This document shows, piece by piece, positions 5,691 to 45,723 of a stretch of DNA of 64,000 bases. A model generated the notes under the pieces. That model saw only the letters and a program-made list of their open reading frames with translations, was not told the origin of the DNA and searched no databases. The position numbers and the translations under genes were made by a program. Every line of letters begins with the position of its first letter. Positions within the stretch are counted from its first letter, which is position 1. The DNA comes from Streptomyces virus StarPlatinum (taxonomy: Duplodnaviria; Heunggongvirae; Uroviricota; Caudoviricetes), in IMG/VR virus record IMGVR_UViG_2974628900_000001, positions 60,305-124,304 of that record; one strand, given 5' to 3'.

Positions 5691-5972
5691 TTGATTTGCG
5701 CCTATGGAGAGTGCGGCAACATGTTCGAGCCCAAGACTCATAATCAGAAGTTTTGCAGCTCAGCATGTTGCCGTAAGGCGACCAACGCACGTATCATGGA
5801 AAAGTATTACGCCAGACGTGATCGCAAGAGAGGTAAAGTGCGAACATGTTCTGAGTGCCCGACTGTTCTTTCCCGATATAACAGCTCAGAAAAGTGCGAG
5901 GGTTGTCAGGGAAAGACGCGGCGGGACGAGAGAGCCGAACTTTTGGAGTTGATTGGTAGTGCCTCTTTCTGA
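5691..5972 (+). CDS. zinc-ribbon protein
   Basis: TTG start; two CxxC pairs (CAYGEC..CSSACC; CSEC..CEGC); basic. Confidence 0.45.
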   Translation: MICAYGECGNMFEPKTHNQKFCSSACCRKATNARIMEKYYARRDRKRGKVRTCSECPTVLSRYNSSEKCEGCQGKTRRDERAELLELIGSASF

Positions 5973-6528
5973 CCTTCACAAGACGAAGGCTCAGAAGGTA
6001 ATGGGTATCGACTGCTCAACTAAGTCTATTGCATTTACCATCTTCGATGGAGAGAACTTCTACAGATGTGGAGAGGTTAATTTCAACGGTGAAACAGTTT
6101 TTGACAGAACTTATGACGCTCACGTAAAGACTTTGGCACTATTCGAAGAGTTCACTCCTGACTTTGTAGCAATCGAAGCAGCAATTATGGTTCGAAGCAC
6201 ATCAGTAGCTATTAAGATGGCTTATGTGTTTGGCGCAGTAATTGCTGCATTGCTCAAGAATGGAGCGAAGGTAATTGAAGTACCTCCTATGAGCTGGCAG
6301 TCATTTATTGGAAACAAGATTTTGACTAAGGCTGAGAAGGATGCAATTAAGGCTGAGTTCCCTGGGAAGTCTGCAAGCTGGTATCAGAATAAGGGCAGAC
6401 AGATCAGGAAGCAGCGAACCATCACCTTTGCCAAGGAAAAATTTGGCATTGAGCTAGAAAGCGATAACGTGGCTGACTCACTGGGAATTGGCTGGTGGGC
6501 AGTACAGAACAAAACTAGAAGGAGCTAA
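5953..6528 (+). CDS. RuvC-like Holliday junction resolvase
   Basis: MGIDCSTKSIAF (RuvC motif I-like Asp), acidic residues, DSLGIGWW C-terminal motif; 191 aa. Confidence 0.7.
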   Translation: MVVPLSDLHKTKAQKVMGIDCSTKSIAFTIFDGENFYRCGEVNFNGETVFDRTYDAHVKTLALFEEFTPDFVAIEAAIMVRSTSVAIKMAYVFGAVIAALLKNGAKVIEVPPMSWQSFIGNKILTKAEKDAIKAEFPGKSASWYQNKGRQIRKQRTITFAKEKFGIELESDNVADSLGIGWWAVQNKTRRS

Positions 6529-6529
6529 C

Positions 6530-6994
6530 ATGATAGTAGCGGGAACTGGACATCGAGATCTGAGGGACCGTGACTGGATTGCTGGCCAAATCGAGAAGGC
6601 CCTCATTGATATGGGGGCCTCTCTTGTTTACGTCGGCATGGCCTCTGGAGCTGATCTCCTAATGGCGAAAATCTCTTGGGGTCTAGGTATTCCATTCATT
6701 GCTGCAAAGCCATGGAGGGGCCACAAGCCTCGCCAGGCCGATGAGTATGACTATGGCCGAGCGCTTCACTACGCAGAAGAGGTTGTCAACGTTACTAACT
6801 ATGACAGCTACCCTGGAGCATGGGTGTACGACGAGCGAAACCGGTTCATGGTTGACAACGCTGATGCCTATCTGGCAGTATTGGAAGCCGGTAGGACTGG
6901 CGGCACTTACAATTGCGTTAAGTACGCATCCCGCAAGGGCAAGTCAGGCATAATCATCGATCCTCTGATGAGGGAGGTGACAAAGCTTGGCTAA
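6530..6994 (+). CDS. SLOG/DprA-like Rossmann-fold protein (DUF1273/DUF2493-like)
   Basis: AGGAG RBS before ATG 6530; GTGHRD...GMASGADLL motifs; family assignment tentative. Confidence 0.45.
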   Translation: MIVAGTGHRDLRDRDWIAGQIEKALIDMGASLVYVGMASGADLLMAKISWGLGIPFIAAKPWRGHKPRQADEYDYGRALHYAEEVVNVTNYDSYPGAWVYDERNRFMVDNADAYLAVLEAGRTGGTYNCVKYASRKGKSGIIIDPLMREVTKLG

Positions 6995-11835: not shown

Positions 11836-12456
11836 ATGTCTACTACTACAGCAATGTTGCTCATCCTCGACCGGTCTGGTAGCATGTCTAGTATCCAGAT
11901 GGAGGCAGAGCAAGCGCTGAATGACTTCCTGACTAAGCAGAAGGCCGTTGACGGTCGATGTGGAGTCAAGGTTGTTCAGTTCGACAGCGAAGTAGAAGAT
12001 CTATTTGGTCCAGTTTCTCTAGCTAACGCACCTGAGATCAAGATCGTCCCTCGTGGAATGACAGCACTACTTGACGCAATCGGCAAGTCTGTGACAGAAT
12101 TCAGAGAGACGATGGACCACATGCCTGTGGATAAGCGACTCGTCGTTATCATGACAGATGGTCTAGAGAATGTTTCTCAGGAGTGGAATCTAGAAGCAGT
12201 TAACAAGCTGATTAGCGAGTCAAGGGAGTTGGGCTATGAGTTCATCTTCCTTGCCGCTAACCAGGATGCAATTGCGACTGGCGCTCAAATGGGTATTCCA
12301 ACAGCTTCAAGTTTGACCTTTGCGGCTAGTCCGGCTGGTGTGCGTGGCATGGGAATGACCATGGACATGTACGTCACCAACTATCGTGAGGGTAAGTCAG
12401 CAGAATTCACTGATCAGGACAGGGCAACAGCTTCTGGCTTGACAGACGAAGACTAA
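11836..12456 (+). CDS. von Willebrand factor A (vWA) domain protein
   Basis: MIDAS motif LDRSGSM, later TDG; 206 aa. Confidence 0.7.
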   Translation: MSTTTAMLLILDRSGSMSSIQMEAEQALNDFLTKQKAVDGRCGVKVVQFDSEVEDLFGPVSLANAPEIKIVPRGMTALLDAIGKSVTEFRETMDHMPVDKRLVVIMTDGLENVSQEWNLEAVNKLISESRELGYEFIFLAANQDAIATGAQMGIPTASSLTFAASPAGVRGMGMTMDMYVTNYREGKSAEFTDQDRATASGLTDED

Positions 12457-12476
12457 GCTGCTAAAGTAGTAAATGT

Positions 12477-12560
12477 GGGTCGAAGGGCTCGGTCGGTTAT
12501 CTTACATTGGAAATAGAAAGCCATTAAATTGGCACCCGACTCCCAACACTTATCCACATT
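12477..12560 (+). ncRNA. Y-RNA-like element, copy d (GGGTCGAAGGG...CGGTTATCTTACA module)
   Basis: 5' sequence tGGGTCGAAGGGctcggtCGGTTATC resembles the conserved metazoan Y RNA 5' end (GGUCCGAAGG...GUUAUC); GGTCGG/CCGACT can pair; no T-loop. Confidence 0.4.
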
Positions 12561-12562
12561 AT

Positions 12563-12633
12563 GCGTCGGTAGTTTAATGGTAGAACGAGAGACTTCCAAT
12601 CTTTCAGCGCGGGTTCGATTCCCGCTCGGCGCT
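12563..12633 (+). tRNA. tRNA-Gly (anticodon TCC)
   Basis: Cloverleaf parsed by hand: acceptor gcgtcgg/tcggcgc, T-loop GGTTCGATTCC, anticodon loop cTTCCAa. Confidence 0.75.
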
Positions 12634-12641
12634 CTCACCAT

Positions 12642-12713
12642 TCCCCATTGGTGTAATCGGCAACACAACAGGCTCTGACCCTGTTATTCCTAGTTCGAAT
12701 CTAGGGTGGGGAG
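12642..12713 (+). tRNA. tRNA-Gln (anticodon CTG)
   Basis: Acceptor tccccat/gtgggga, T-arm cctagTTCGAATctagg, anticodon loop ctCTGac. Confidence 0.7.
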
Positions 12714-12943
12714 CTGGTCCGACTTTACGATATCGGCGGAAATAACGGAACCGGAACTCACATAATAACCATGGTAAAAGTGAGGAATGGCGAAGGGAAA
12801 TATGCGGGAAGCGATGGGTAAAACCTCCTCGGATCGACAATTTAAGGCCAGTTGCAGGCCAGCATAGAACAATAGATCTCCCTGGGTTAGGCGCTTACGC
12901 CGTCTATTGTTTGAATGCGAAGGGGTCACGCCCAAGCAACTAT

Positions 12944-13014
12944 ATGTCCTAAGTGTTACGGTAGCACGGTGGTCTCCAAAACCACAAGCGAGGGTTCAAC
13001 TCCTTCAGGACATG
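12944..13014 (+). tRNA. tRNA-Trp (anticodon CCA)
   Basis: Perfect acceptor atgtcct/aggacat, anticodon stem gtggt/accac, loop ctCCAaa. Confidence 0.8.
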
Positions 13015-13020
13015 CTCTAT

Positions 13021-13056
13021 AAGGGTTCCAAACTTGCAATAAGATTTGGAACCCTT
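13021..13056 (+). terminator. 12-bp stem hairpin after tRNA-Trp, followed by TATAAT
   Basis: AAGGGTTCCAAA-12 nt-TTTGGAACCCTT then TATAAT and the HNH start. Confidence 0.5.
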
Positions 13057-13068
13057 TATAATTGCCTC

Positions 13069-13422
13069 ATGGCATACGCAGATATTGAGAAGAGTCGGGC
13101 AGCGAAGCGCGCCCACTATCACAAGAACAAGGAACAGTACAAGCTTAGGAACACTCAGAGAAAGCTGGAGATGAGAAACTATCTCATTGAGCTTAAGAGG
13201 GTTCCGTGTATGGACTGTGGAAATTCATACCCATTCTATTGCATGGATTTCGATCACAGAGATCCTTCTGAAAAGGAAGGGAACATTGGTCAAATTGTAA
13301 ACAATGGATCATGGAATAAACTTTACGCAGAGGTCGCCAAGTGCGATGTTGTCTGCGCAAACTGTCACAGAATTCGAACGGCGAAGAAGTCTAACTGGAC
13401 TCCTGACCAGCTATATAAGTGA
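13069..13422 (+). CDS. HNH endonuclease (small, tRNA-cluster associated)
   Basis: CMDCGNSYPFYCMDFDHRDP...CANCHRIRT HNH/zinc motif; paralogue of 29307..29651; extended ORF from 12907 would overlap tRNA-Trp. Confidence 0.7.
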   Translation: MAYADIEKSRAAKRAHYHKNKEQYKLRNTQRKLEMRNYLIELKRVPCMDCGNSYPFYCMDFDHRDPSEKEGNIGQIVNNGSWNKLYAEVAKCDVVCANCHRIRTAKKSNWTPDQLYK

Positions 13423-13876
13423 GGCAACATGGGATACTACACTTCGATACCAAGTTGAGATTGTCAGAGACAGCGAGAGAGCTAAGGATCTCATTGACAA
13501 CGCTGATAGTGTCACCATTCCTGGAAGCTACGAACTGAATCTATCTAGACTGCTCAACGGCAACTATGATACGATGAAGTGGTACGACTGGGAAGACGAC
13601 ATGGCTAGCCTCTCTAGAGATTGGCCGAATGTCCTCTTTGCCCTGAGTGGTGAAGGAGAGGAGCCCGGTGATCTCTGGAAGGCTTGGGTAAGAAACGGCA
13701 AGGTTGTCAAGGTAGAAGGTAGAATCGTCTACGATGTGCCAGACCTTGACAAGGTGCTTCCGATCAACGATACTGTAGAAGAGAAGTACAAGGCACAGAA
13801 GAAGGCAGAGCTTCAAGCCACGATCAAGGATCTTGAGAACAGGCTACAGGAGCTTAAGGGTCTATCTAAGGATTGA
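13304..13876 (+). CDS. hypothetical protein (start uncertain)
   Basis: 190-aa ORF; first 119 nt overlap HNH gene in another frame, so true start may be internal. Confidence 0.4.
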   Translation: MDHGINFTQRSPSAMLSAQTVTEFERRRSLTGLLTSYISEATWDTTLRYQVEIVRDSERAKDLIDNADSVTIPGSYELNLSRLLNGNYDTMKWYDWEDDMASLSRDWPNVLFALSGEGEEPGDLWKAWVRNGKVVKVEGRIVYDVPDLDKVLPINDTVEEKYKAQKKAELQATIKDLENRLQELKGLSKD

Positions 13877-13877
13877 G

Positions 13878-14045
13878 ATGGCACTAGTTGGAAACGGCAA
13901 TACATGCTGGTTTCAGCGATGTGGCAACAAGCCAATCCATCGAATTAGGTACTACAACAAGACCGTAATGGTTTGCAACAAGCACAAGAATCTCGATGGA
14001 GCTGGTTGTGCGCCTAGTCGCAGAAGGCCAAAAGATTCAGCTTGA
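13878..14045 (+). CDS. small Cys-rich protein
   Basis: AAGGA RBS, 55 aa, CWFQRC...CNKHK...C. Confidence 0.4.
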   Translation: MALVGNGNTCWFQRCGNKPIHRIRYYNKTVMVCNKHKNLDGAGCAPSRRRPKDSA

Positions 14046-14077
14046 CAGACGCTAGCGGGTCTGTTAGTATTAAGTAC
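14042..14077 (+). promoter_or_regulatory. sigma-70-like promoter before tRNA cluster
   Basis: TTGACA-17 nt-TAGTAT. Confidence 0.5.
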
Positions 14078-14099
14078 AACGCAGCGACAACGCTGCTAT

Positions 14100-14171
14100 C
14101 TGGCACGGGGAAGATGGTAATCCATTCGCTTTGGAAGCGTAAGAAACCCGGTTCGATTCCGGGGTGCCAGA
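14100..14171 (+). tRNA. tRNA-Pro (anticodon TGG), copy 1
   Basis: Acceptor ctggcac/gtgccag, T-arm cccggTTCGATTccggg, anticodon loop ttTGGaa (one stem mismatch). Confidence 0.6.
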
Positions 14172-14194
14172 CTCGGACTGCAAAAGCAGTCTAT

Positions 14195-14269
14195 CGGGAT
14201 GTAGCTCAGCTTGGTCAGAGCGCGCCGTTTGGGGCGGTGAAGTCGCAGGTTCGAATCCTGTCATCCCGA
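14195..14269 (+). tRNA. tRNA-Pro (anticodon TGG), copy 2
   Basis: Acceptor cgggatg/catcccg, D-arm GCTCAGCTTGGTCAGAGC, anticodon loop ttTGGgg. Confidence 0.65.
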
Positions 14270-14275
14270 CAATTT

Positions 14276-14346
14276 GGGTCGAATGGGACACGGTTATCAC
14301 TCAATGGATAATAGGTTCGATTCCTATCGCTGGGTTCGCTCGGTAG
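14276..14346 (+). ncRNA. Y-RNA-like element, copy a (5' module plus canonical T-arm, no pairing acceptor)
   Basis: GGGTCGAATGGGacaCGGTTATCACTCAATGG then T-arm ataggTTCGATTcctat; 5' and 3' ends do not form a tRNA acceptor stem. Confidence 0.4.
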
Positions 14347-14432
14347 ATACAAGTCATCCGAGATTGTGTGTGGTAGGATGACGTTAAGGACTACACACTA
14401 TCCGTTCCCGCCATATACCTAAAGGACTTACT

Positions 14433-14954
14433 ATGACTGTACTATTGAGAACAATTCATGGTTCCCATCTGTATGGGCTCGCTCACAAGGGTTCTGACAA
14501 AGACATTTACGAAGTAATTGCAACCAGTCGAACCAAGCGTAAGCGAAACATCAAGCAAACCATTGTGAATGGTGTTGACAAGACGACGGTAGATATGTCA
14601 ACATTTATGAATATGGTTGACGAATGCGTACCTCAAGCACTTGAAGCGCTATGGACGCCGGTCGCTGAGATCGATAAGATCCACGAATTCCGGACTCAAT
14701 ATCGAGTGAATCGCGCCAAGATGAAGGAAGTATACATTCGAACCGCTCTGAACTTCGCTAAGAGTGATGGAGTAAAGCAGAGGCGTCACGCTATCCGCCT
14801 GCTTCTGAATCTCGGTGCAGCTTTGGAATACGGTAAGTTTAATCCCCAGCTTTCCAACATGGACAAGTTCATTCTTGAATCTTCCATGGGCGAGACTGGA
14901 GCATATGAGGATGTCTTTCTAGGCGTCCTTGACGAAGTACAAAAGTGGGTCTGA
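14433..14954 (+). CDS. Pol-beta-superfamily nucleotidyltransferase domain protein
   Basis: hGSxxYGL(x9)GSDxD motif (HGSHLYGLAHKGSDKD) near N-terminus; 173 aa. Confidence 0.55.
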   Translation: MTVLLRTIHGSHLYGLAHKGSDKDIYEVIATSRTKRKRNIKQTIVNGVDKTTVDMSTFMNMVDECVPQALEALWTPVAEIDKIHEFRTQYRVNRAKMKEVYIRTALNFAKSDGVKQRRHAIRLLLNLGAALEYGKFNPQLSNMDKFILESSMGETGAYEDVFLGVLDEVQKWV

Positions 14955-14971: not shown

Positions 14972-15048
14972 TGGGGCGTATACCCTCTGTCTGATAAACA
15001 GTTGAAAGGTTAAGTGGTCACATGTGGGTTCAACTCCCACCGTCCCAA
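14972..15048 (+). tRNA. probable tRNA, identity unresolved
   Basis: Canonical T-arm gtgggTTCAACTcccac and pairing acceptor tggggcg/cgtccca, but D and anticodon arms could not be folded by eye. Confidence 0.35.
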
Positions 15049-17162: not shown

Positions 17163-17236
17163 GCGCCTGTAGCATATGTGGTTGATGCGCCAGTCTTATA
17201 AACTGGAGAAAGCGGGTTCAAATCCCGCCAGGCGTA
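17163..17236 (+). tRNA. tRNA-Ile (anticodon TAT)
   Basis: Acceptor gcgcctg/caggcgt, D gcat/atgc, anticodon stem ccagt/actgg, loop cTTATAa; preceded by TTGACA-17-TAAGCT and a UUCG hairpin. Confidence 0.7.
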
Positions 17237-20977: not shown

Positions 20978-21048
20978 CCCGGCGTAGTGTAATGGAAACA
21001 CGATACGTTGTCAGCGTATTATCGAGGGTTCGATTCCCTTCGTCGGGA
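20978..21048 (+). tRNA. tRNA-Asp (anticodon GTC), copy 2
   Basis: Acceptor cccggcg/cgtcggg, D gtgt/acac, anticodon stem atacg/cgtat, loop ttGTCag; preceded by GCCC-UUCG-GGGC hairpin. Confidence 0.65.
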
Positions 21049-21053
21049 CTTTT

Positions 21054-21128
21054 GGGTCGAATGACTATCGGTTATCTGTCTATGAAACAGACTGAAACAC
21101 GGTTCGAATCCGTGGATTGCTTTGGATG
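21054..21128 (+). ncRNA. Y-RNA-like element, copy b (5' module + GAA-loop hairpin + canonical T-arm)
   Basis: GGGTCGAATGActatCGGTTATCTGTCTatgaaacAGAC then cacggTTCGAATccgtg; no complementary 3' acceptor; 0.5 kb upstream of Ro60 gene. Confidence 0.45.
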
Positions 21129-21171
21129 CTAGGTTTACGGTCGATGTCAACAACTTACCCATACAACTTAA

Positions 21172-21246
21172 TTCGGGCCGAATGGAATCGGTTATCTTAC
21201 ACTGCAAATATAAGGTCGATTCCTACCAACTTGCCCGATCTTTTCA
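21172..21246 (+). ncRNA. Y-RNA-like element, copy c (closing stem TCGGGC/GCCCGA + U-tail)
   Basis: tcGGGCCGAATGGaatCGGTTATCTTACA...aaggTCGATTCct...GCCCGAtcttttc; 5' and 3' ends pair, T-rich tail; 0.4 kb upstream of Ro60 gene. Confidence 0.45.
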
Positions 21247-21638: not shown

Positions 21639-23267
21639 ATGTCCAACGCACTAACTAATGCCGCAAAGGCAACCAACAAGACTTCTCAGAATCTGCCAGC
21701 AAAGGCAGGACAGGTCAAGAACAACGCTGGTGGATTCGTCTTCCAGGTTTCTGATCAGTCTCGCCTTGAGCGATTTCTGATTCTTGGAACTGATGGAGGA
21801 ACGTATTACGTTTCTGAGGTTAACCACACTCAGTCAAACGTGACCTTCCTCAACGAGATGATTGCCCGAGACGAAGCCTCTGTACTGAACACAATCGTTG
21901 ATGTATCTGTCAATGGTCGTGCGTACAAGCAGTCTCCTGCCCTGTTCGCTCTAGCCTCTGTCATTGTCAACGGCAAGGATAAGCAGGCGGTCAAGGCGGT
22001 ATTCAACAAGGTCGTAAGGACTGCTACTCACCTCTACGAGGTAGTTAACTATCTTAACGAGCTTGGTGGATGGGGTCGCGCAAAGCGAGAAATCGTAGCT
22101 GGCTGGTTCGACAAGGACGCTGATAAGCTTGCTTATCAGGCTGTCAAGTATCGTTCCCGCACGTTCGGTGGAAACACCTGGACGCTACGAGACGTAATGC
22201 GAAAGGCTCACCCACAGAACGTTAACACGTCTGTTGCTGATTTCGTCCTAGGCAAGGAGCACGCGGCTGTAGATGACCTTCGGGTTATCGAGGGCTTCAA
22301 GCTTATGCAGAAGGCGGAGTCTGTAGAGGCTGTGCACGCAGTTCTGCGGGATTACGAGATGCTTAGCTGGGAGACCATTCCAACGCAGTTCCTCACGGAT
22401 GCTAGCGTTTGGAAGCGACTCTTTGCTAATGGTCAGCTTCGTGGTCAGGCTGCTGTTCGAAACATTACTCGCCTCGCGCGTATTGGTGCTTTCAAGGACA
22501 TGCGGTTCGCTGCGAACTTTGCTAGCCAGCTAGCGAATGAGGAAATGATTCGTCAATCTCGACTGCACCCAATTAACTTCCTTAACGCTGCCGTTGTTTA
22601 TGCCGATGGCCAGGTGGATCGAAAGAACATCTGGGGTGGACGTGTAAAGAACTGGGAGACTGAGGGTGTTATTGTCGATGCAATCGATGAGGCGTTCCAC
22701 AAGTCATTCAAGACCATTGAGCCAGCCGGTAAGAGGACGATGCTAGCCATCGACTGTTCCGGTTCAATGAGCACACAGGCTATGGGTCTCGACCTAAGCT
22801 GTGCGCAGGTTGCTGGCGCTATGGCAATGACCATTGCTCGTACTGAGCCAGCTCACATCATCCGTGGTTTCTCTTCCAAGGGATACAACTGGCGTGATAG
22901 CGGTATGGCCGAACTAAAGATCACCAGCCGTAGCTCTCTTGCTCAGGCAATGAGTGCAATGCGTGCGGTGAACTGGGGAGGCACAGACTGCTCACTTCCA
23001 ATGACGTGGGCGCTTGAGAATGGCGTAGAGGTTGACACCTTCGTCGTTATCACTGATAACGAGACGTGGGCTGGAAAGATTCACCCATTCCAGGCTCTTA
23101 AGAAGTACCGCAAGGAAATGGGAATTGACGCAAGGCTCGCTGTTCTAGGAGTCGCTTCAACTCCATTTACTATCGCTGATCCTAGCGATAGCGGCATGAT
23201 GGACTTCGTTGGCTTTGATAGCAACGCTCCACGTGTTCTTGCTGACTTCTCCGCAGGTCGCATCTGA
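21639..23267 (+). CDS. rsr: Ro60/Rsr-like ribonucleoprotein (TROVE domain + vWA domain)
   Basis: RLERFLILGTDGGTYY matches Ro60 signature RLHRFLCFGSEGGTYY; PALFALASV matches PMLFALAIC; C-terminal vWA MIDAS AIDCSGSM; 542 aa. Confidence 0.9.
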   Translation: MSNALTNAAKATNKTSQNLPAKAGQVKNNAGGFVFQVSDQSRLERFLILGTDGGTYYVSEVNHTQSNVTFLNEMIARDEASVLNTIVDVSVNGRAYKQSPALFALASVIVNGKDKQAVKAVFNKVVRTATHLYEVVNYLNELGGWGRAKREIVAGWFDKDADKLAYQAVKYRSRTFGGNTWTLRDVMRKAHPQNVNTSVADFVLGKEHAAVDDLRVIEGFKLMQKAESVEAVHAVLRDYEMLSWETIPTQFLTDASVWKRLFANGQLRGQAAVRNITRLARIGAFKDMRFAANFASQLANEEMIRQSRLHPINFLNAAVVYADGQVDRKNIWGGRVKNWETEGVIVDAIDEAFHKSFKTIEPAGKRTMLAIDCSGSMSTQAMGLDLSCAQVAGAMAMTIARTEPAHIIRGFSSKGYNWRDSGMAELKITSRSSLAQAMSAMRAVNWGGTDCSLPMTWALENGVEVDTFVVITDNETWAGKIHPFQALKKYRKEMGIDARLAVLGVASTPFTIADPSDSGMMDFVGFDSNAPRVLADFSAGRI

Positions 23268-27785: not shown

Positions 27786-27901
27786 AGGAGTGTAGTTTAA
27801 TTGGCAAAACCGCGAAATGCAATGTCGAAAGCGTCTGTGGCGTGAGCCCACGGTTAGTAGATATCAAAGTAGCAGTTGCGGGTTCGAGTCCCGTCACTCC
27901 G
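27786..27901 (+). ncRNA. tRNA-like element with about 40-nt internal insertion
   Basis: Acceptor aggagtg/cactcc (1:72 mismatch), D-arm GTTTAATTGGCAAAAC, canonical T-arm gcgggTTCGAGTcccgt, but 65 nt between D- and T-arms. Confidence 0.3.
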
Positions 27902-28041
27902 CTAGCCTGAGATGACGATCCGATGTAGGTCCCCTAGGGCTTGCGCAGGCCCGAAGGGCATTCGGGAAAGGTGCCTAGCTAGGTCCGTCTACCAACAAGG
28001 TGAGAGTTTTTCACGGTTTTCCTCATAATTAAACCGTGTTT

Positions 28042-38826: not shown

Positions 38827-39222
38827 ATGGGTGATCGCACCAATGTTGGCGTAGTCATGCGTGGCAGCAATGGACAAGAGAAGCTTGGTATCCTGTGGGT
38901 TTATTCACACTGGGGTCTACCTGGCATTACGGCTTCCATTGCGAAGGCTCTTGACAACGCCAAGGGTCGATGGGATGATGATATGTATGGACAGCGAATC
39001 TTCGTTCAGTCCATCATGGAGGCCGGTGGCATGGAAGGTAGCTCTGAGCTAGGCGGTGGACTAAGCTTTAACTTCATCGCTGACAATGAGCACAAGCTTT
39101 GGGTGGCTGACTTCTACGACCAAACGATGTATCTCTTCCCTGAGTACAGCGGTGGTCTTGACACACCCGAGCCTCTTGTGGCAACATCATTTCAGAACTT
39201 CGTCACTAAGTATCTTAAGTGA
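38827..39222 (+). CDS. hypothetical protein
   Basis: 131-aa ORF. Confidence 0.45.
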   Translation: MGDRTNVGVVMRGSNGQEKLGILWVYSHWGLPGITASIAKALDNAKGRWDDDMYGQRIFVQSIMEAGGMEGSSELGGGLSFNFIADNEHKLWVADFYDQTMYLFPEYSGGLDTPEPLVATSFQNFVTKYLK

Positions 39223-43001: not shown

Positions 43002-44078
43002 ATGAAGTTCACCAAGATCTTCTCACAGGAGCTGCTTGACGAGATGATCTCAGAGGGCTATGTCCGGGCGCAATTTCATCCGGTTCTGCCTCTCAAGATT
43101 CTCAACTACTCCGAGAAGACTCAGTTCGCTGGAAAGTGGAATGACTGCACGCTTAACTGTCGTGGATTGATCGTTGACCTTGACGGCAACTTGATTGCTC
43201 GTCCTTTCATGAAGTTCTTCAACTTGGGTGACTCTCAGTCTGCACAACTTGACTGGGATGCTCCGGTTGAGGTTACGGACAAGAAGGACGGCTCAATGGG
43301 GGTTCTGTACTCATACGGCGGTGATTGGGCAATTGCGACTCGCGGCTCATTCATGTCAGACCAGGCGATTCACGGAACTCGTGTGCTAAATGAGCGTTAC
43401 AGCCACATCCAGTTTGTCTCAGACTACACTTTCATCTTCGAGATCGTTTACCCTGAGAACAGGATTGTTCTGGACTACGGTTCAATGGACGACCTGATTC
43501 TTCTGGGTGCGGTTCACAAGGAGTACGGTTACGTCTGCGGCCCTCTGGAGGCTCAGGCAATTGTTAATTGGGACGGGCCGGTGACGGAGGTCTTCAATTA
43601 CAACTCATTGCGTGAGGCGGCTGGAGCGCAGTACAGGAAGAACGCAGAGGGTTTCGTAGTCCGCTCTGGCAACAAGATGGTCAAGATCAAGCAGGCAGAT
43701 TACGTTGAGCTGCACCGCATGATCTCCATGCTTTCAGAGCGTTCTGTATGGAGCCAGCTCACCGAGGGCAAGACGATTCTTGAGATTTGTGAGGCACTGC
43801 CTGACGAGTTTCACGGGTTTGTCAAGGACGTTGGTGGCAAGCTTCTCACTGACTACGAGCGCATCGAGGTCGAGGTTTACGGTATCTACCAGAACCTTCT
43901 GACTTCTTTGGGCGAGGGTTTCACGCGACGTGACTTCGCAATGGCCGCAAACCGAATCGATCTCTACAGGTCTCACATGTTCAACCTGCTTGACGGGAAG
44001 AGCATCAATGAGCTAATCTGGAAGCAGATCAGGCCGGAGGCCAAGCGAGAGGACGTACACCCTACCAATGCAGGCTAA
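43002..44078 (+). CDS. rnlA: RNA ligase 1 (T4 RnlA-like) tRNA repair ligase
   Basis: NCRGLIVDLDGNLIARPFMKFFNLGD matches T4 Rnl1 ECRGIMFEMDGE..RPMEKFFNLNE; motif I KxDGS (TDKKDGSMG); FEIVYPENRIVLDY; motif V KMVKIKQADY. Confidence 0.85.
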   Translation: MKFTKIFSQELLDEMISEGYVRAQFHPVLPLKILNYSEKTQFAGKWNDCTLNCRGLIVDLDGNLIARPFMKFFNLGDSQSAQLDWDAPVEVTDKKDGSMGVLYSYGGDWAIATRGSFMSDQAIHGTRVLNERYSHIQFVSDYTFIFEIVYPENRIVLDYGSMDDLILLGAVHKEYGYVCGPLEAQAIVNWDGPVTEVFNYNSLREAAGAQYRKNAEGFVVRSGNKMVKIKQADYVELHRMISMLSERSVWSQLTEGKTILEICEALPDEFHGFVKDVGGKLLTDYERIEVEVYGIYQNLLTSLGEGFTRRDFAMAANRIDLYRSHMFNLLDGKSINELIWKQIRPEAKREDVHPTNAG

Positions 44079-44826: not shown

Positions 44827-45723
44827 GTGAAGATGCAGCTTCTCATCCTCCGGGGCGTTCCCGGTTGTGGTAAGAGCACCTGGGCACATGACGTGTGGCT
44901 GAGGGAAAACCCGAATGGTGTTCGAGTCAATCGTGATGACATTCGTATGCAGCTCTTTGGCCGGGAGACCGGAGTAGACGAGGAGCTTGTCACTCGAATT
45001 GAGCACGGAATGGTTGATGGGGCTCTGGCAAAGGGCTACTCAGTCATTGTCGATGACACGAACATCCGACACAAGTACATCAAGGAATTCGTAAAGATCG
45101 GTCAGCGTCACGGCGCTAGCGTTGCTGTAAAGCAGTTCGACGTTCCTCTTGAGACGGCAATTGCTCGAAACAAGGCTCGTGCCGAGTCCGGTGGTCGAGA
45201 TGTTCCTGAGTCTGTGATTCGTAGAATGCATCAGTCCCTTAAGTCTAGTGGAGTCTTCACTGATTTCCACACAGACGTTACGGCCGTTCGTCCTTACGAG
45301 CGTCCCGAAGGTGCAGAGAAGGTTTACCTCTTTGACATCGACGGAACTCTTGCTGAGATGAACAATCGTGATCCCTTCAATTGGAGGGAAGTTGGGACGG
45401 ATGATCCACGACGACAGGTGATCCTTACTGCTCAGGCTCACGCCAAGGCGGGATACAAGATCATCGTTATGAGTGGACGAGACGGCTCATGTCGCAATGG
45501 AACAATCGCTTGGCTGGATCTGTACGACATTCCTTTCTCAGAATTGCACATGCGTGCTGAGGGGGATATGCGTAAGGACTCCATCGTCAAGCAAGAGTTG
45601 TTCGATGAGCACATTCGAGACATCTACGATGTTGTGGCTGTCTACGATGATCGTCAGCAGGTTGTTGACATGTGGCGTGCGATGGGCATAGACTGTTTCC
45701 AGGTAGCACCCGGAAACTTCTGA
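44827..45723 (+). CDS. pnk: polynucleotide kinase / 3'-phosphatase (T4 Pnk-like)
   Basis: P-loop GVPGCGKSTWA, RVNRDDIR, HAD phosphatase motif LFDIDGTLAEMN, C-terminal QVVDMWRAMGIDCFQVAPGNF matches T4 [21 protein letters not shown]. Confidence 0.9.
   Translation: MKMQLLILRGVPGCGKSTWAHDVWLRENPNGVRVNRDDIRMQLFGRETGVDEELVTRIEHGMVDGALAKGYSVIVDDTNIRHKYIKEFVKIGQRHGASVAVKQFDVPLETAIARNKARAESGGRDVPESVIRRMHQSLKSSGVFTDFHTDVTAVRPYERPEGAEKVYLFDIDGTLAEMNNRDPFNWREVGTDDPRRQVILTAQAHAKAGYKIIVMSGRDGSCRNGTIAWLDLYDIPFSELHMRAEGDMRKDSIVKQELFDEHIRDIYDVVAVYDDRQQVVDMWRAMGIDCFQVAPGNF

What the first reader, a model, noticed from the sequence alone, without database searches (positions are those of the whole stretch)
12477..14346. 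Two further copies of the Y-RNA-like 5' module inside distant tRNA clusters
The same GGGTCGAA(G/T)GG...CGGTTATC(T/A)...ACA module recurs at 12477..12560 and 14276..14346, the latter with a canonical T-arm ataggTTCGATTcctat. This gives four paralogous copies in the window. A dispersed family of tRNA-adjacent, tRNA-mimicking RNAs is not explained by ordinary tRNA annotation.
Basis: seen in the sequence. Interest (0 to 1): 0.75.

Follow-up and report, generated by a model that had tools for sequence, protein, structure and literature searches.

The report
Unannotated phage Y RNA genes
The two flagged stretches are real, unannotated genes for Y RNAs, the small RNAs that partner the Ro60 protein this Streptomyces phage also encodes. 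They extend a known RNA class rather than defining a new one.

Summary
The window is Streptomyces phage StarPlatinum, which encodes a Ro60 orthologue at 21639-23267.

Exactly four elements share the box GGGYCGAA-N5-12-CGGTTATC. All are on the Ro strand, where about 0.0004 would be expected by chance. No further copy exists in the rest of the genome.

True extents:
- A: 12472-12560.
- B: 14273-14423.
- C: 21053-21161.
- D: 21173-21238.

The box is the published GNCGAAN0-1G motif of bacterial Y RNAs. In every copy the 5' and 3' ends pair into the Y RNA stem: a basal helix GGGY/RCCC, a bulged C, an asymmetric internal loop and an upper helix. Covariation is strong across 20 elements from 8 phages.

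A covariance model trained without any B sequence finds B at 33 bits (E 7e-6). It also finds all B orthologues and the YrlA-type element of a mycobacteriophage (the one Rfam's YrlA model matches).

A and B are conserved at the same positions in related phage genera. A and D are short Y RNAs with no tRNA-like part. B has V, T, acceptor-like and D-like arms, like YrlA but divergent.

What is new is modest: Streptomyces phages, four paralogues, and two copies 7-9 kb from Ro inside tRNA operons. Ro binding and expression are untested.

The parts
12472..12560 (+). Y RNA paralogue A (about 89 nt, short type, no T-arm). Basal helix 12472-12480 / 12552-12560; bulged C 12481; GAA 12482-12484; upper helix GGG 12485-12487 + GGTCGG 12491-12496 pairing with CCGACT 12536-12541 + CCC 12542-12544; TTATC 12497-12501; small internal hairpin GCCA-TTAAAT-TGGC 12520-12533.
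   Evidence: MFE fold z = -2.4. Consensus fold of 6 orthologues has compensatory changes. CM hits at 99.7 bits (R1) and 76 bits (R3). Same position in Bordeaux, Genie2, NootNoot, Jay2Jay, Mildred21, PacManQ and Naboo.
12439..12467 (+). Sigma-70-like promoter TTGACA-17-TAAAGT with a TG extension. It places a transcription start at about 12473-12475, the first bases of A.
   Evidence: Consensus scan scores 10 of 12. Both hexamers are conserved in 7 phages while the spacer varies. The start site is inferred, not measured.
12563..12634 (+). tRNA-Gly(tcc), starting 2 nt after the end of A. RNase P cleavage at its 5' end would create the 3' end of A (inferred).
   Evidence: ARAGORN and Rfam. The same 2-nt spacing is seen in Naboo.
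14273..14423 (+). Y RNA paralogue B (about 151 nt, YrlA-like). Basal helix 14273-14279 / 14417-14423; bulged C 14280; upper helix 14284-14293 / 14402-14410; TTATC 14294-14298; V hairpin 14295-14310; T-arm 14311-14327; acceptor-like hairpin GCTGGG-TTCG-CTCGGT 14329-14344; D-like arm GTCATCC..GTGGTA..GGATGAC 14353-14382; 19-nt linker 14383-14401.
   Evidence: Consensus fold of 6 orthologues: 98.9% of cells paired, against 40-52% when the partners are slid. Model R3, trained without any B-type sequence, scores 33.3 bits, E 6.6e-6, as a full-length match at 14269-14427. Six orthologues score 32.7-40.5 bits.
14042..14070 (+). Sigma-70-like promoter TTGACA-17-TAGTAT upstream of the two tRNA-Pro genes and B. 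It shares the box GCTTGACAGACG with the promoter of A.
14195..14270 (+). tRNA-Pro(tgg), ending 3-4 nt before B. tRNA 3' processing would free the 5' end of B (inferred).
14433..14954 (+). gp111 nucleotidyltransferase, weakly similar to RlaP of RNA repair pathways. Its Shine-Dalgarno AAGGA (14422-14426) overlaps the last 2 nt of the basal helix of B.
   Evidence: Pfam RlaP 22.2 bits against a cut-off of 23. PHROG 388 nucleotidyltransferase, E 6e-21. Adjacency conserved in Karimacvirus, Samistivirus and the genus-unassigned PacManQ.
11836..12456 (+). gp102, a stand-alone vWA-domain protein directly upstream of A. The promoter of A lies in its 3' end.
   Evidence: Pfam VWA_2 and VWA. Conserved position.
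21053..21161 (+). Y RNA paralogue C (about 109 nt; T-arm CACGG-TTCGAAT-CCGTG at 21098-21114). It starts 4 nt after tRNA-Asp (20978-21049).
   Evidence: 59.9 bits.
21173..21238 (+). Y RNA paralogue D (about 66 nt, short type), followed by the U-rich tract TCTTTTCATTT.
   Evidence: Fold z = -3.05. Rfam nematode stem-bulge RNA family RF01656, which I recall as Y RNA homologues: 32.1 bits, E 1e-4, below the cut-off of 38. R3 scores 62.4 bits.
21639..23267 (+). gp133, the Ro60 orthologue and presumed protein partner of all four RNAs.
   Evidence: Pfam vWA_Ro60 E 3.8e-61 and TROVE E 5.6e-35. GenBank product 'Ro-like RNA binding protein'.

Best explanation
A (12472-12560) and B (14273-14423) are genes for noncoding Y RNAs. 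They are paralogues of C and D, which lie just upstream of the phage Ro60 gene.

Fold (shown): in each RNA the 5' and 3' ends pair into a long stem. The stem presents the Ro60-binding helix GGGY[C]GA / U(U)RCCC with a bulged C, then an asymmetric internal loop, an upper helix and a UUAUC turn.

Binding (inferred): phage Ro60 (gp133) binds this stem.

Specificity (inferred): the variable distal part differs between paralogues. A and D have a short loop that would mainly gate the Ro60 cavity. B and C have a tRNA-like module (T-arm, closed acceptor-like hairpin, D-like arm) that would recruit a tRNA-recognising partner or protect the RNA from nucleases.

Biogenesis (inferred from anatomy): the RNAs are co-transcribed with tRNAs from sigma-70-like promoters and released by tRNA processing. 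A begins at the predicted transcription start and ends 2 nt before tRNA-Gly, where RNase P cuts. B and C begin 3-4 nt after a tRNA 3' end.

Shown here: homology, conserved structure, conserved position, and presence of the Ro60 gene. Not shown: expression, RNA ends, Ro60 binding, partners.
For: - Ro60 orthologue on the same strand.
- The box equals the GNCGAAN0-1G motif that Chen et al. 2014 defined for YrlA and YrlB.
- CGGTTAYC follows that motif in the three Y RNAs upstream of Ro in mycobacteriophage ScottMcG.
- All 25 stem pairs tested, from 9 phage genomes, fold into the same architecture.
- A hand-made structural alignment of 20 stems has 91.6% of cells paired against 72% in shuffles. 16 of 21 pairs show double changes, and slid controls give 34-48%.
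- Orthologue alignments of A and B keep 96-99% pairing with compensatory GGG/CCC to GAG/CUC changes.
- A CM built only from A orthologues finds C, D, the E type and the mycobacteriophage short Y RNAs.
- CM R3, with no B rows, finds B at 33.3 bits, E 6.6e-6. Only four hits occur in 64 kb, and the next best is 8.8 bits.
- R3 also finds six B orthologues and the untrained ScottMcG element that Rfam's YrlA model matches.
- There are no further copies in the rest of the genome.
- The promoter is conserved across phages.
Against: - There are no expression, RNA-end or binding data.
- Rfam YrlA (RF02553) gives no hit to A or B even at E <= 10.
- The D-like arm of B is atypical: a 7-bp stem, a 16-nt loop and a 19-nt linker.
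- A and B lie 9.1 and 7.2 kb from Ro60, outside the 4-kb rule used to call Y RNAs in the literature.
- MFE z-scores for B and C alone are unremarkable, at -0.4 and -0.9.
- The 20-row alignment was fitted by hand to the structure, which inflates its pairing statistics.
Confidence: 0.8

Rival explanations
1. B is mainly a cis-acting leader of the nucleotidyltransferase (gp111) mRNA, and A a processing or stability structure at the 5' end of a tRNA operon transcript. On this view they reuse a Y-RNA-like fold but do not act as free Ro60-bound RNAs.
For: The basal helix of B ends 9 nt before the gp111 start codon and overlaps its Shine-Dalgarno sequence. The B-gp111 adjacency is conserved in Karimacvirus, Samistivirus and the genus-unassigned PacManQ. 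A sits at the predicted transcription start.
Against: The same stem module occurs in C, D and E elements with no downstream gene link. Naboo keeps A, C and D but no B was detected there. In Belfort and TunaTartare the annotated nucleotidyltransferase gene (homology to gp111 not tested) has no such element upstream. The Ro-binding motif is conserved to the base, which a generic leader would not need.
Confidence: 0.08
2. A and B are decaying duplicate copies of the Ro-proximal Y RNA genes, with no function of their own.
For: They are distant from Ro60. The T-loop-distal part of B is irregular, and B scores lower with R3 than A, C or D.
Against: A is conserved at the same position in Karimacvirus, Samistivirus and Tomasvirus, and B in the first two, at Ro60 protein identities down to 72% (A, Naboo) and 74% (B, Mildred21). 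Helices are kept by compensatory changes. A keeps a conserved promoter.
Confidence: 0.06
3. They are tRNA leader or trailer remnants, or tRNA pseudogenes.
For: Both abut tRNA genes. B has a canonical T-arm. The C-type element of Mildred21 was annotated as tRNA-Ser.
Against: ARAGORN and the Rfam tRNA model call neither element. A has no T-arm. The conserved parts are the Y RNA stem strands, not a cloverleaf. The Mildred21 'tRNA-Ser' scores only 25.5 bits as tRNA but 60.6 bits with the Y RNA model.
Confidence: 0.03

Closest known systems
YrlA and YrlB, the bacterial and mycobacteriophage Y RNAs (Chen et al. 2014, PMC4201824; Rfam RF02553 YrlA)
   Same: - GNCGAAN0-1G motif near the 5' end, followed by YCGGUUAYC, as in mycobacteriophage ScottMcG.
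- Ends pair into a long stem.
- Encoded on the same strand as a Ro60 orthologue, with several copies per genome.
- B has the YrlA order V - T-arm - closed acceptor-like hairpin - D-like arm.
- A and D lack the tRNA-like part; Salmonella YrlB is, as I recall, similar in this (the M. smegmatis YrlB is reported with a possible T-arm).
   Different: - A and B are 9.1 and 7.2 kb from Ro60, against the 4 kb or less used in the published search.
- They are embedded in tRNA operons directly next to tRNA genes.
- Both strands of the Ro-binding helix, including the bulged C, are recognisable. Chen et al. report only the 5' strand in Salmonella and M. smegmatis.
- No StarPlatinum copy has the canonical D-arm GUAGCUCA..GGUAGAGC, and none reaches any RF02553 score.
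Metazoan Y RNAs and nematode stem-bulge RNAs (Rfam RF01656 ceN72-3/ceN74-2)
   Same: A terminal stem whose conserved helix carries a bulged C: GGUC[C]GA/UUGACC in animals (recalled from memory) against GGGY[C]GA/U(U)RCCC here. Copy D matches RF01656 at 32.1 bits, E 1e-4.
   Different: The match is below the gathering score of 38. A and B do not hit the family. The phage RNAs are made in a bacterial context with tRNA-linked processing, and B and C carry a tRNA-like module that animal Y RNAs lack.
Canonical YrlA copies in sister phages (E type, after tRNA-Ile in NootNoot, Jay2Jay and PacManQ; also TunaTartare)
   Same: The same stem module and the same tRNA-adjacent placement. They are found by the same models.
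   Different: The NootNoot, Jay2Jay and TunaTartare copies were scanned with Rfam and match YrlA over its full length at 35-40 bits, with a canonical D-arm; PacManQ was not scanned. StarPlatinum lacks this copy and has D instead.
tRNA and tmRNA
   Same: B has a 5-bp T-stem with the 7-nt loop TTCGATT, and a GG-containing D-like loop.
   Different: There is no cloverleaf, no anticodon arm and no free acceptor end. Neither ARAGORN nor Rfam tRNA calls it.

Membership tests
Bacterial/phage Y RNA (YrlA/YrlB type, Chen et al. 2014) | GNCGAAN0-1G motif near the 5' end | tested here: met
   A has GTCGAAG at 12479. B has GTCGAATG at 14278. C has GTCGAATG and D has GCCGAATG. The motif definition comes from PMC4201824.
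Bacterial/phage Y RNA (YrlA/YrlB type, Chen et al. 2014) | 5' and 3' ends pair into a long stem that carries the motif in a bulged helix, conserved across relatives | tested here: met
   In the 20-stem alignment 91.6% of cells pair, 16 of 21 pairs have double changes, and slid controls give 34-48%.
Bacterial/phage Y RNA (YrlA/YrlB type, Chen et al. 2014) | Genome encodes a Ro60 (TROVE) orthologue, and the RNA is on the same strand | tested here: met
   gp133 has TROVE + vWA_Ro60 domains. All four elements and every hit in ten related loci are on the Ro strand.
Bacterial/phage Y RNA (YrlA/YrlB type, Chen et al. 2014) | Located within 4 kb of the Ro60 gene (operational criterion of the published search) | tested here: not met
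   A ends 9,079 nt and B 7,216 nt upstream of the Ro60 start at 21639. C and D meet the criterion, at about 0.4-0.5 kb.
Bacterial/phage Y RNA (YrlA/YrlB type, Chen et al. 2014) | Statistical homology to accepted Y RNAs by a profile not trained on the element | tested here: met
   R3 has no B rows and scores B at 33.3 bits, E 6.6e-6. The same model scores the untrained ScottMcG element that Rfam's YrlA model matches at 34.4 bits. R1, built from A orthologues only, hits the ScottMcG short Y RNAs at 28.5 and 21.3 bits.
Bacterial/phage Y RNA (YrlA/YrlB type, Chen et al. 2014) | Bound by Ro60 and expressed as a stable RNA | not testable with these tools
   This needs a Northern blot or RNA-seq, plus immunoprecipitation or gel shift with gp133.
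YrlA subfamily (Rfam RF02553) | Score at or above the Rfam gathering threshold (69 bits) | tested here: not met
   There is no RF02553 hit to A, B, C or D even at E <= 10. The ScottMcG YrlA-type element also reaches only 36 bits, and the E-type copies only 35-40 bits. The threshold is therefore too strict for phage members.
YrlA subfamily (Rfam RF02553) | tRNA-like domain: T-arm, closed acceptor-like hairpin, D-arm | tested here: inconclusive
   In B the T-arm is met (14311-14327, with covariation A-U to C-G) and the acceptor-like hairpin with a UUCG loop is met. Its D-arm is only D-like: a 7-bp stem, a 16-nt loop with GGUA, and a 19-nt linker. A has no T-arm, so A is not YrlA-type.
tRNA (RF00005) | Cloverleaf recognised by ARAGORN or the Rfam tRNA model | tested here: not met
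   No call at 12472-12560 or 14273-14423.

The most novel reading that the evidence does not exclude
The phage runs a modular Y RNA set whose production is wired into its tRNA operons: the promoter gives the 5' end and RNase P or tRNA 3' processing gives the other ends. Each paralogue would direct the one phage Ro60 to a different partner. On this reading the tRNA-like copy B doubles as the leader of the RlaP-like nucleotidyltransferase mRNA. That would couple expression of an RNA-repair or tailing enzyme to tRNA processing, or to damage inflicted by host anticodon nucleases.
Probability: 0.12. Interest if true: 0.7.

Novelty: new member of a known kind. Interest (0 to 1): 0.42.

Why it matters
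- Annotation: Y RNAs are not annotated in any of the phage records examined here (StarPlatinum and ten relatives), and I found no paper describing them in Streptomyces phages. One was even mis-annotated as a tRNA.
- Search rules: Ro60-encoding phages carry three to five Y RNA paralogues. Some lie well outside the 4-kb search radius used in the literature, so Y RNA inventories in bacteria and phages are probably incomplete.
- Experimental use: these phages plate on S. griseus and offer a compact system with one Ro60 and four distinguishable Y RNAs. The system could address the open question of what the tRNA-like module of bacterial Y RNAs does, and why a virus needs Ro60 at all.
- Processing: the tight tRNA adjacency gives a testable route for Y RNA 5' and 3' end formation.

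Tried and rejected
- Rfam at gathering and at E <= 10 gave no family for A or B. Copy D alone gave a sub-threshold stem-bulge RNA hit.
- Model R1 was built with three or four mis-specified pairs, which was my error. It still found the C, D and E types and the mycobacteriophage Y RNAs, but scored B at only 6 bits.
- Model R2 was built from chimeric stems with the internal domains removed. It found only the short copies A and D, probably because its maximum hit length excludes elements of 110-150 nt.
- The 3'-strand profile HMM alone is weak (E 0.3-3) and not diagnostic.
- The IMG/VR scan with GGGTCGAA-N5-12-GGTTATC returned 120 loci. Only about 12 have a convincing 5' module, and at least some of those are BE-cluster phage genomes already in GenBank (one contig has Jay2Jay's length), so it added no diversity.
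- GGGTCGATGGG at 38964 lies inside a coding region and is not a copy.
- A D-stem GAUA/UAUC in B was considered and dropped because it is not conserved in Bordeaux or Genie2.
- The long stem GUGUGUGGUAG/CUACACAC predicted for B alone is not supported by orthologues.
- The 229-nt spacer at 12715-12943 has no Rfam hit and a fold z of +0.7.
- A Markov-chain simulation for the chance expectation timed out and was replaced by an analytic estimate.
The retry succeeded.
Full report
**Source and context.**
- The window is 100% identical to Streptomyces phage StarPlatinum (MH576965.1, genus Karimacvirus, 133,886 bp). Window position equals record position minus 60,304.
- It holds 42 tRNA genes and a tmRNA by ARAGORN.
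- GenBank annotates an RNA ligase and a polynucleotide kinase.
- At 21639-23267 (+) lies gp133, annotated 'Ro-like RNA binding protein'. Pfam confirms a Ro60 orthologue: vWA_Ro60 E 3.8e-61 and TROVE E 5.6e-35.
- GenBank annotates nothing at any of the four elements discussed here.

**Checking the observation.**
- Both flagged sites carry the box as stated.
- The exact pattern GGG[CT]CGAA.{5,12}CGGTTATC occurs four times, at 12477, 14276, 21054 and 21175. All four are on the + strand, against about 0.0004 expected.
- A profile HMM of the 5' module finds these four (E about 1e-4) and then nothing better than E 1.5.
- Profiles built without B-type rows and without any StarPlatinum row still find B (E 0.003). 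Profiles without A-type rows still find A (E 0.001).
- The T-arm ATAGG-TTCGATT-CCTAT is at 14311-14327.
- One correction is needed. The second element does not end at 14346. Its 3' strand lies at 14402-14423, so it spans 14273-14423.

**What the box is.**
- Chen et al. 2014 (PMC4201824) defined GNCGAAN0-1G near the 5' end as the conserved, probably Ro60-contacting motif of bacterial Y RNAs (YrlA, YrlB). They compared it with the GGUCCGA of animal Y RNAs.
- All four copies match it.
- In mycobacteriophage ScottMcG, three Y-RNA-like elements sit upstream of Ro. Each has GGCCGA(A/U/G).. followed by (C/G)UCGGUUA(U/C)C, the same two boxes as here. The phage belongs to Bixzunavirus (Bxz1 type); Chen et al. 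reported Y RNAs in Ro60-encoding mycobacteriophages.
- Rfam's YrlA model recognises the middle ScottMcG element at only 36 bits, against a gathering score of 69.

**Structure.**
- In each copy the 5' module pairs with a 3' strand 65-150 nt downstream.
- The shared layout has five parts:
  - a basal helix ending ..GGGY / RCCC..;
  - a bulged C;
  - a G-U pair;
  - an asymmetric internal loop (5' AA(N), 3' about 7 nt such as ACCAACW);
  - an upper helix of 8-12 bp, followed by UUAUC.
- All 25 stems tested, from nine phage genomes, fold this way on their own.
- I made a structural alignment of 20 of them by hand, with N in place of gaps (alignment A7).
  - 91.6% of cells form standard pairs, against 72% in shuffles.
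  - 16 of 21 pairs show a change on both sides.
  - Sliding the 3' partner by 1-3 columns gives 34-48% pairing.
  - Because the alignment was fitted to the structure, these numbers lean in its favour.
- The helix sequences differ between paralogues while pairing is kept.
  - Basal helix: UGUGGGU/AUCCACA in A, UUUGGGU/ACCUAAA in B, UGGGU/ACCCA in C, UCGGGC/GCCCGA in D.
- Within orthologues, MAFFT/RNAalifold alignments of A and B keep 95.7% and 98.9% pairing. Compensatory changes occur, such as GGG/CCC to GAG/CUC, and A-U to C-G in the T-stem.

**Independent homology test.**
- Model R1 was built from A orthologues only and had a few mis-specified pairs.
  - It found C- and D-type copies, an extra 'E' copy in sister phages, and two ScottMcG Y RNAs, all as full-length matches.
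  - It did not find B.
- Model R3 was built from 21 natural elements (A, C, D and E types, ScottMcG, Belfort, TunaTartare) and no B-type sequence. It was run on the whole window with filters off.
  - It gave exactly four hits. A, D and C are training members.
  - B matched at 14269-14427 with 33.3 bits, E 6.6e-6, over the full model, and used the predicted 3' strand.
  - The next hit scored 8.8 bits.
- R3 also found all six untrained B orthologues (32.7-40.5 bits) and the untrained ScottMcG element that Rfam's YrlA model matches (34.4 bits).
- The rest of the StarPlatinum genome has no further copy; the best score there is 17.5 bits, E 0.05.

**Anatomy of the two flagged copies.**
- A (12472-12560) is a short Y RNA. 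It has the stem, plus a 34-nt distal region with one small covarying hairpin at 12520-12533. It has no T-arm.
- B (14273-14423) has, in order:
  - the stem;
  - a V hairpin;
  - a canonical T-arm;
  - a closed 6-bp acceptor-like hairpin with a UUCG loop;
  - a D-like arm (7-bp stem, 16-nt loop containing GGUA);
  - a 19-nt linker.
- This is the YrlA order, that of a circularly permuted tRNA. The D region is atypical, and Rfam YrlA gives no score.

**Conservation and copy number.**
- A sits between the vWA-protein gene and tRNA-Gly in Bordeaux, Genie2, NootNoot, Jay2Jay, Mildred21, PacManQ and Naboo. These cover Karimacvirus, Samistivirus and Tomasvirus, plus PacManQ, whose genus is not assigned in the record.
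- B sits between the second tRNA after the promoter (tRNA-Pro; annotated tRNA-Thr(tgg) in NootNoot) and the nucleotidyltransferase gene in the first six of these phages.
- Copy number per phage, counted in the 9.5-17 kb fetched around Ro:

| Phage or genus | Copies | Types |
|---|---|---|
| Karimacvirus | 4 | A, B, C, D |
| Samistivirus | 4 | A, B, E, C |
| Naboo | 3 | A, C, D |
| Belfort | 5 | not typed |
| TunaTartare | 5 | not typed |
| ScottMcG | 3 | not typed |

- Every copy is on the Ro strand.
- The E copies of NootNoot and Jay2Jay, and one TunaTartare copy, match Rfam YrlA over its full length at 35-40 bits and have a canonical D-arm. PacManQ was not scanned with Rfam.

**Biogenesis (inferred).**
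- A sigma-70-like promoter TTGACA-17-TAAAGT with a TG extension lies at 12439-12467. It places the start at about 12473-12475, the first bases of A.
- Both hexamers are conserved in seven phages while the spacer varies.
- A ends 2 nt before tRNA-Gly.
- B starts 3-4 nt after tRNA-Pro and lies downstream of a second promoter that shares the box GCTTGACAGACG.
- C starts 4 nt after tRNA-Asp.
- D is followed by a U-rich tract.
- RNase P and tRNA 3' processing would therefore release the Y RNAs.
- Chen et al. showed that M. smegmatis YrlA and YrlB are cut from one precursor, and that RNase P and CCA addition act on YrlA.

**Function (inferred).**
- By analogy with D. radiodurans and Salmonella, Y RNA tethers Ro60 to PNPase and gates access to the Ro60 cavity.
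- I propose that all four RNAs bind gp133 through the shared stem, and that their different distal modules set partner choice or stability.
- The gene after B (gp111) is a nucleotidyltransferase with a weak RlaP match: 22.2 bits against a cut-off of 23, and PHROG 388 at E 6e-21.
- Its Shine-Dalgarno sequence overlaps the basal helix of B. This leaves open a cis role for B.

**Comparison and novelty.**
- The elements belong to the known Y RNA class.
- They fail two operational criteria: the Rfam YrlA threshold and the 4-kb distance rule. The ScottMcG YrlA-type element fails the first criterion too.
- The differences worth noting are these:
  - Streptomyces phages, not reported in the literature I could search;
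  - four paralogues, two of them 7-9 kb from Ro60 and embedded in tRNA operons;
  - both strands of the Ro-binding helix, with the bulged C, retained as in animal Y RNAs. This is probably why copy D hits the nematode stem-bulge RNA family. Chen et al. saw only the 5' strand in Salmonella and M. smegmatis.
- I rate this a new member of a known kind, of moderate interest.

Noticed in passing
window 14972-15048 (+): A weak tRNA-like element (Rfam tRNA 30.3 bits, cut-off 29) lies between the nucleotidyltransferase and FtsK-like genes. ARAGORN does not call it and GenBank does not annotate it. The same weak hit is conserved in NootNoot (L004 7279-7355), Jay2Jay (L005 6738-6814) and Mildred21 (L006 7204-7280).
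   Followed up: partly
window 27786-27902 (+): A 117-nt match to the Rfam tRNA model (33.6 bits) that ARAGORN does not call. It may be a tRNA with a long insertion or intron.
   Followed up: no
window 12715-12943 (+); L008 12317-12474: A 229-nt non-coding spacer between tRNA-Gln and tRNA-Trp has no Rfam match and an unremarkable fold (z +0.7). In TunaTartare the equivalent Gln-Trp spacer matches the manA RNA motif RF01745 at 45.6 bits, E 1.6e-8, below its cut-off of 55.2.
   Followed up: partly
L006 13401-13472 (Mildred21, NC_042008.1 79900-79971): The annotated 'tRNA-Ser(tga)' is really the 5' part of a Y-RNA-like element. The Y RNA model scores 60.6 bits over 13393-13515, while the Rfam tRNA model scores only 25.5 bits, below its cut-off.
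   Followed up: yes
L004 about 6497-6577 and L005 about 5958-6038: NootNoot and Jay2Jay carry an unannotated insert of about 80 nt between the second tRNA (tRNA-Pro in Jay2Jay; annotated tRNA-Thr(tgg) in NootNoot) and element B. It looks tRNA-like, with paired ends GCCCC/GGGGC followed by TCCA.
   Followed up: no
window 12437, 14040, 17109, 57442 (+): The box GCTTGACAGAC(G/A), containing a perfect -35 hexamer, recurs in front of tRNA/Y RNA clusters, including upstream of tRNA-Ile at 17163. It is probably a phage promoter class for the tRNA region.
   Followed up: partly
window 13018-13059 (+): A long, near-perfect hairpin (AAGGGTTCCAAA...TTTGGAACCCTT) lies directly after tRNA-Trp. It is a plausible terminator for the transcript that starts with element A.
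   Followed up: no
window 11836-12456 (+): A stand-alone vWA-domain protein (gp102, PHROG 7371, function unknown) is conserved directly upstream of element A. Ro60 itself ends in a vWA domain, so a functional link is conceivable but untested.
   Followed up: partly
window 43002-44078 and 44833-45723 (+): An RNA ligase (gp211) and a polynucleotide kinase (gp214) are annotated. With Ro60, the Y RNAs, the tmRNA and 42 tRNAs, they give the phage a broad RNA repair and translation toolkit.
   Followed up: no
L007 12389-13936 and L008 12675-14077: Belfort and TunaTartare (Loccivirinae) each carry about five Y-RNA-like elements interleaved with tRNAs within 2.5 kb of their Ro60 gene. None is annotated.
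   Followed up: partly
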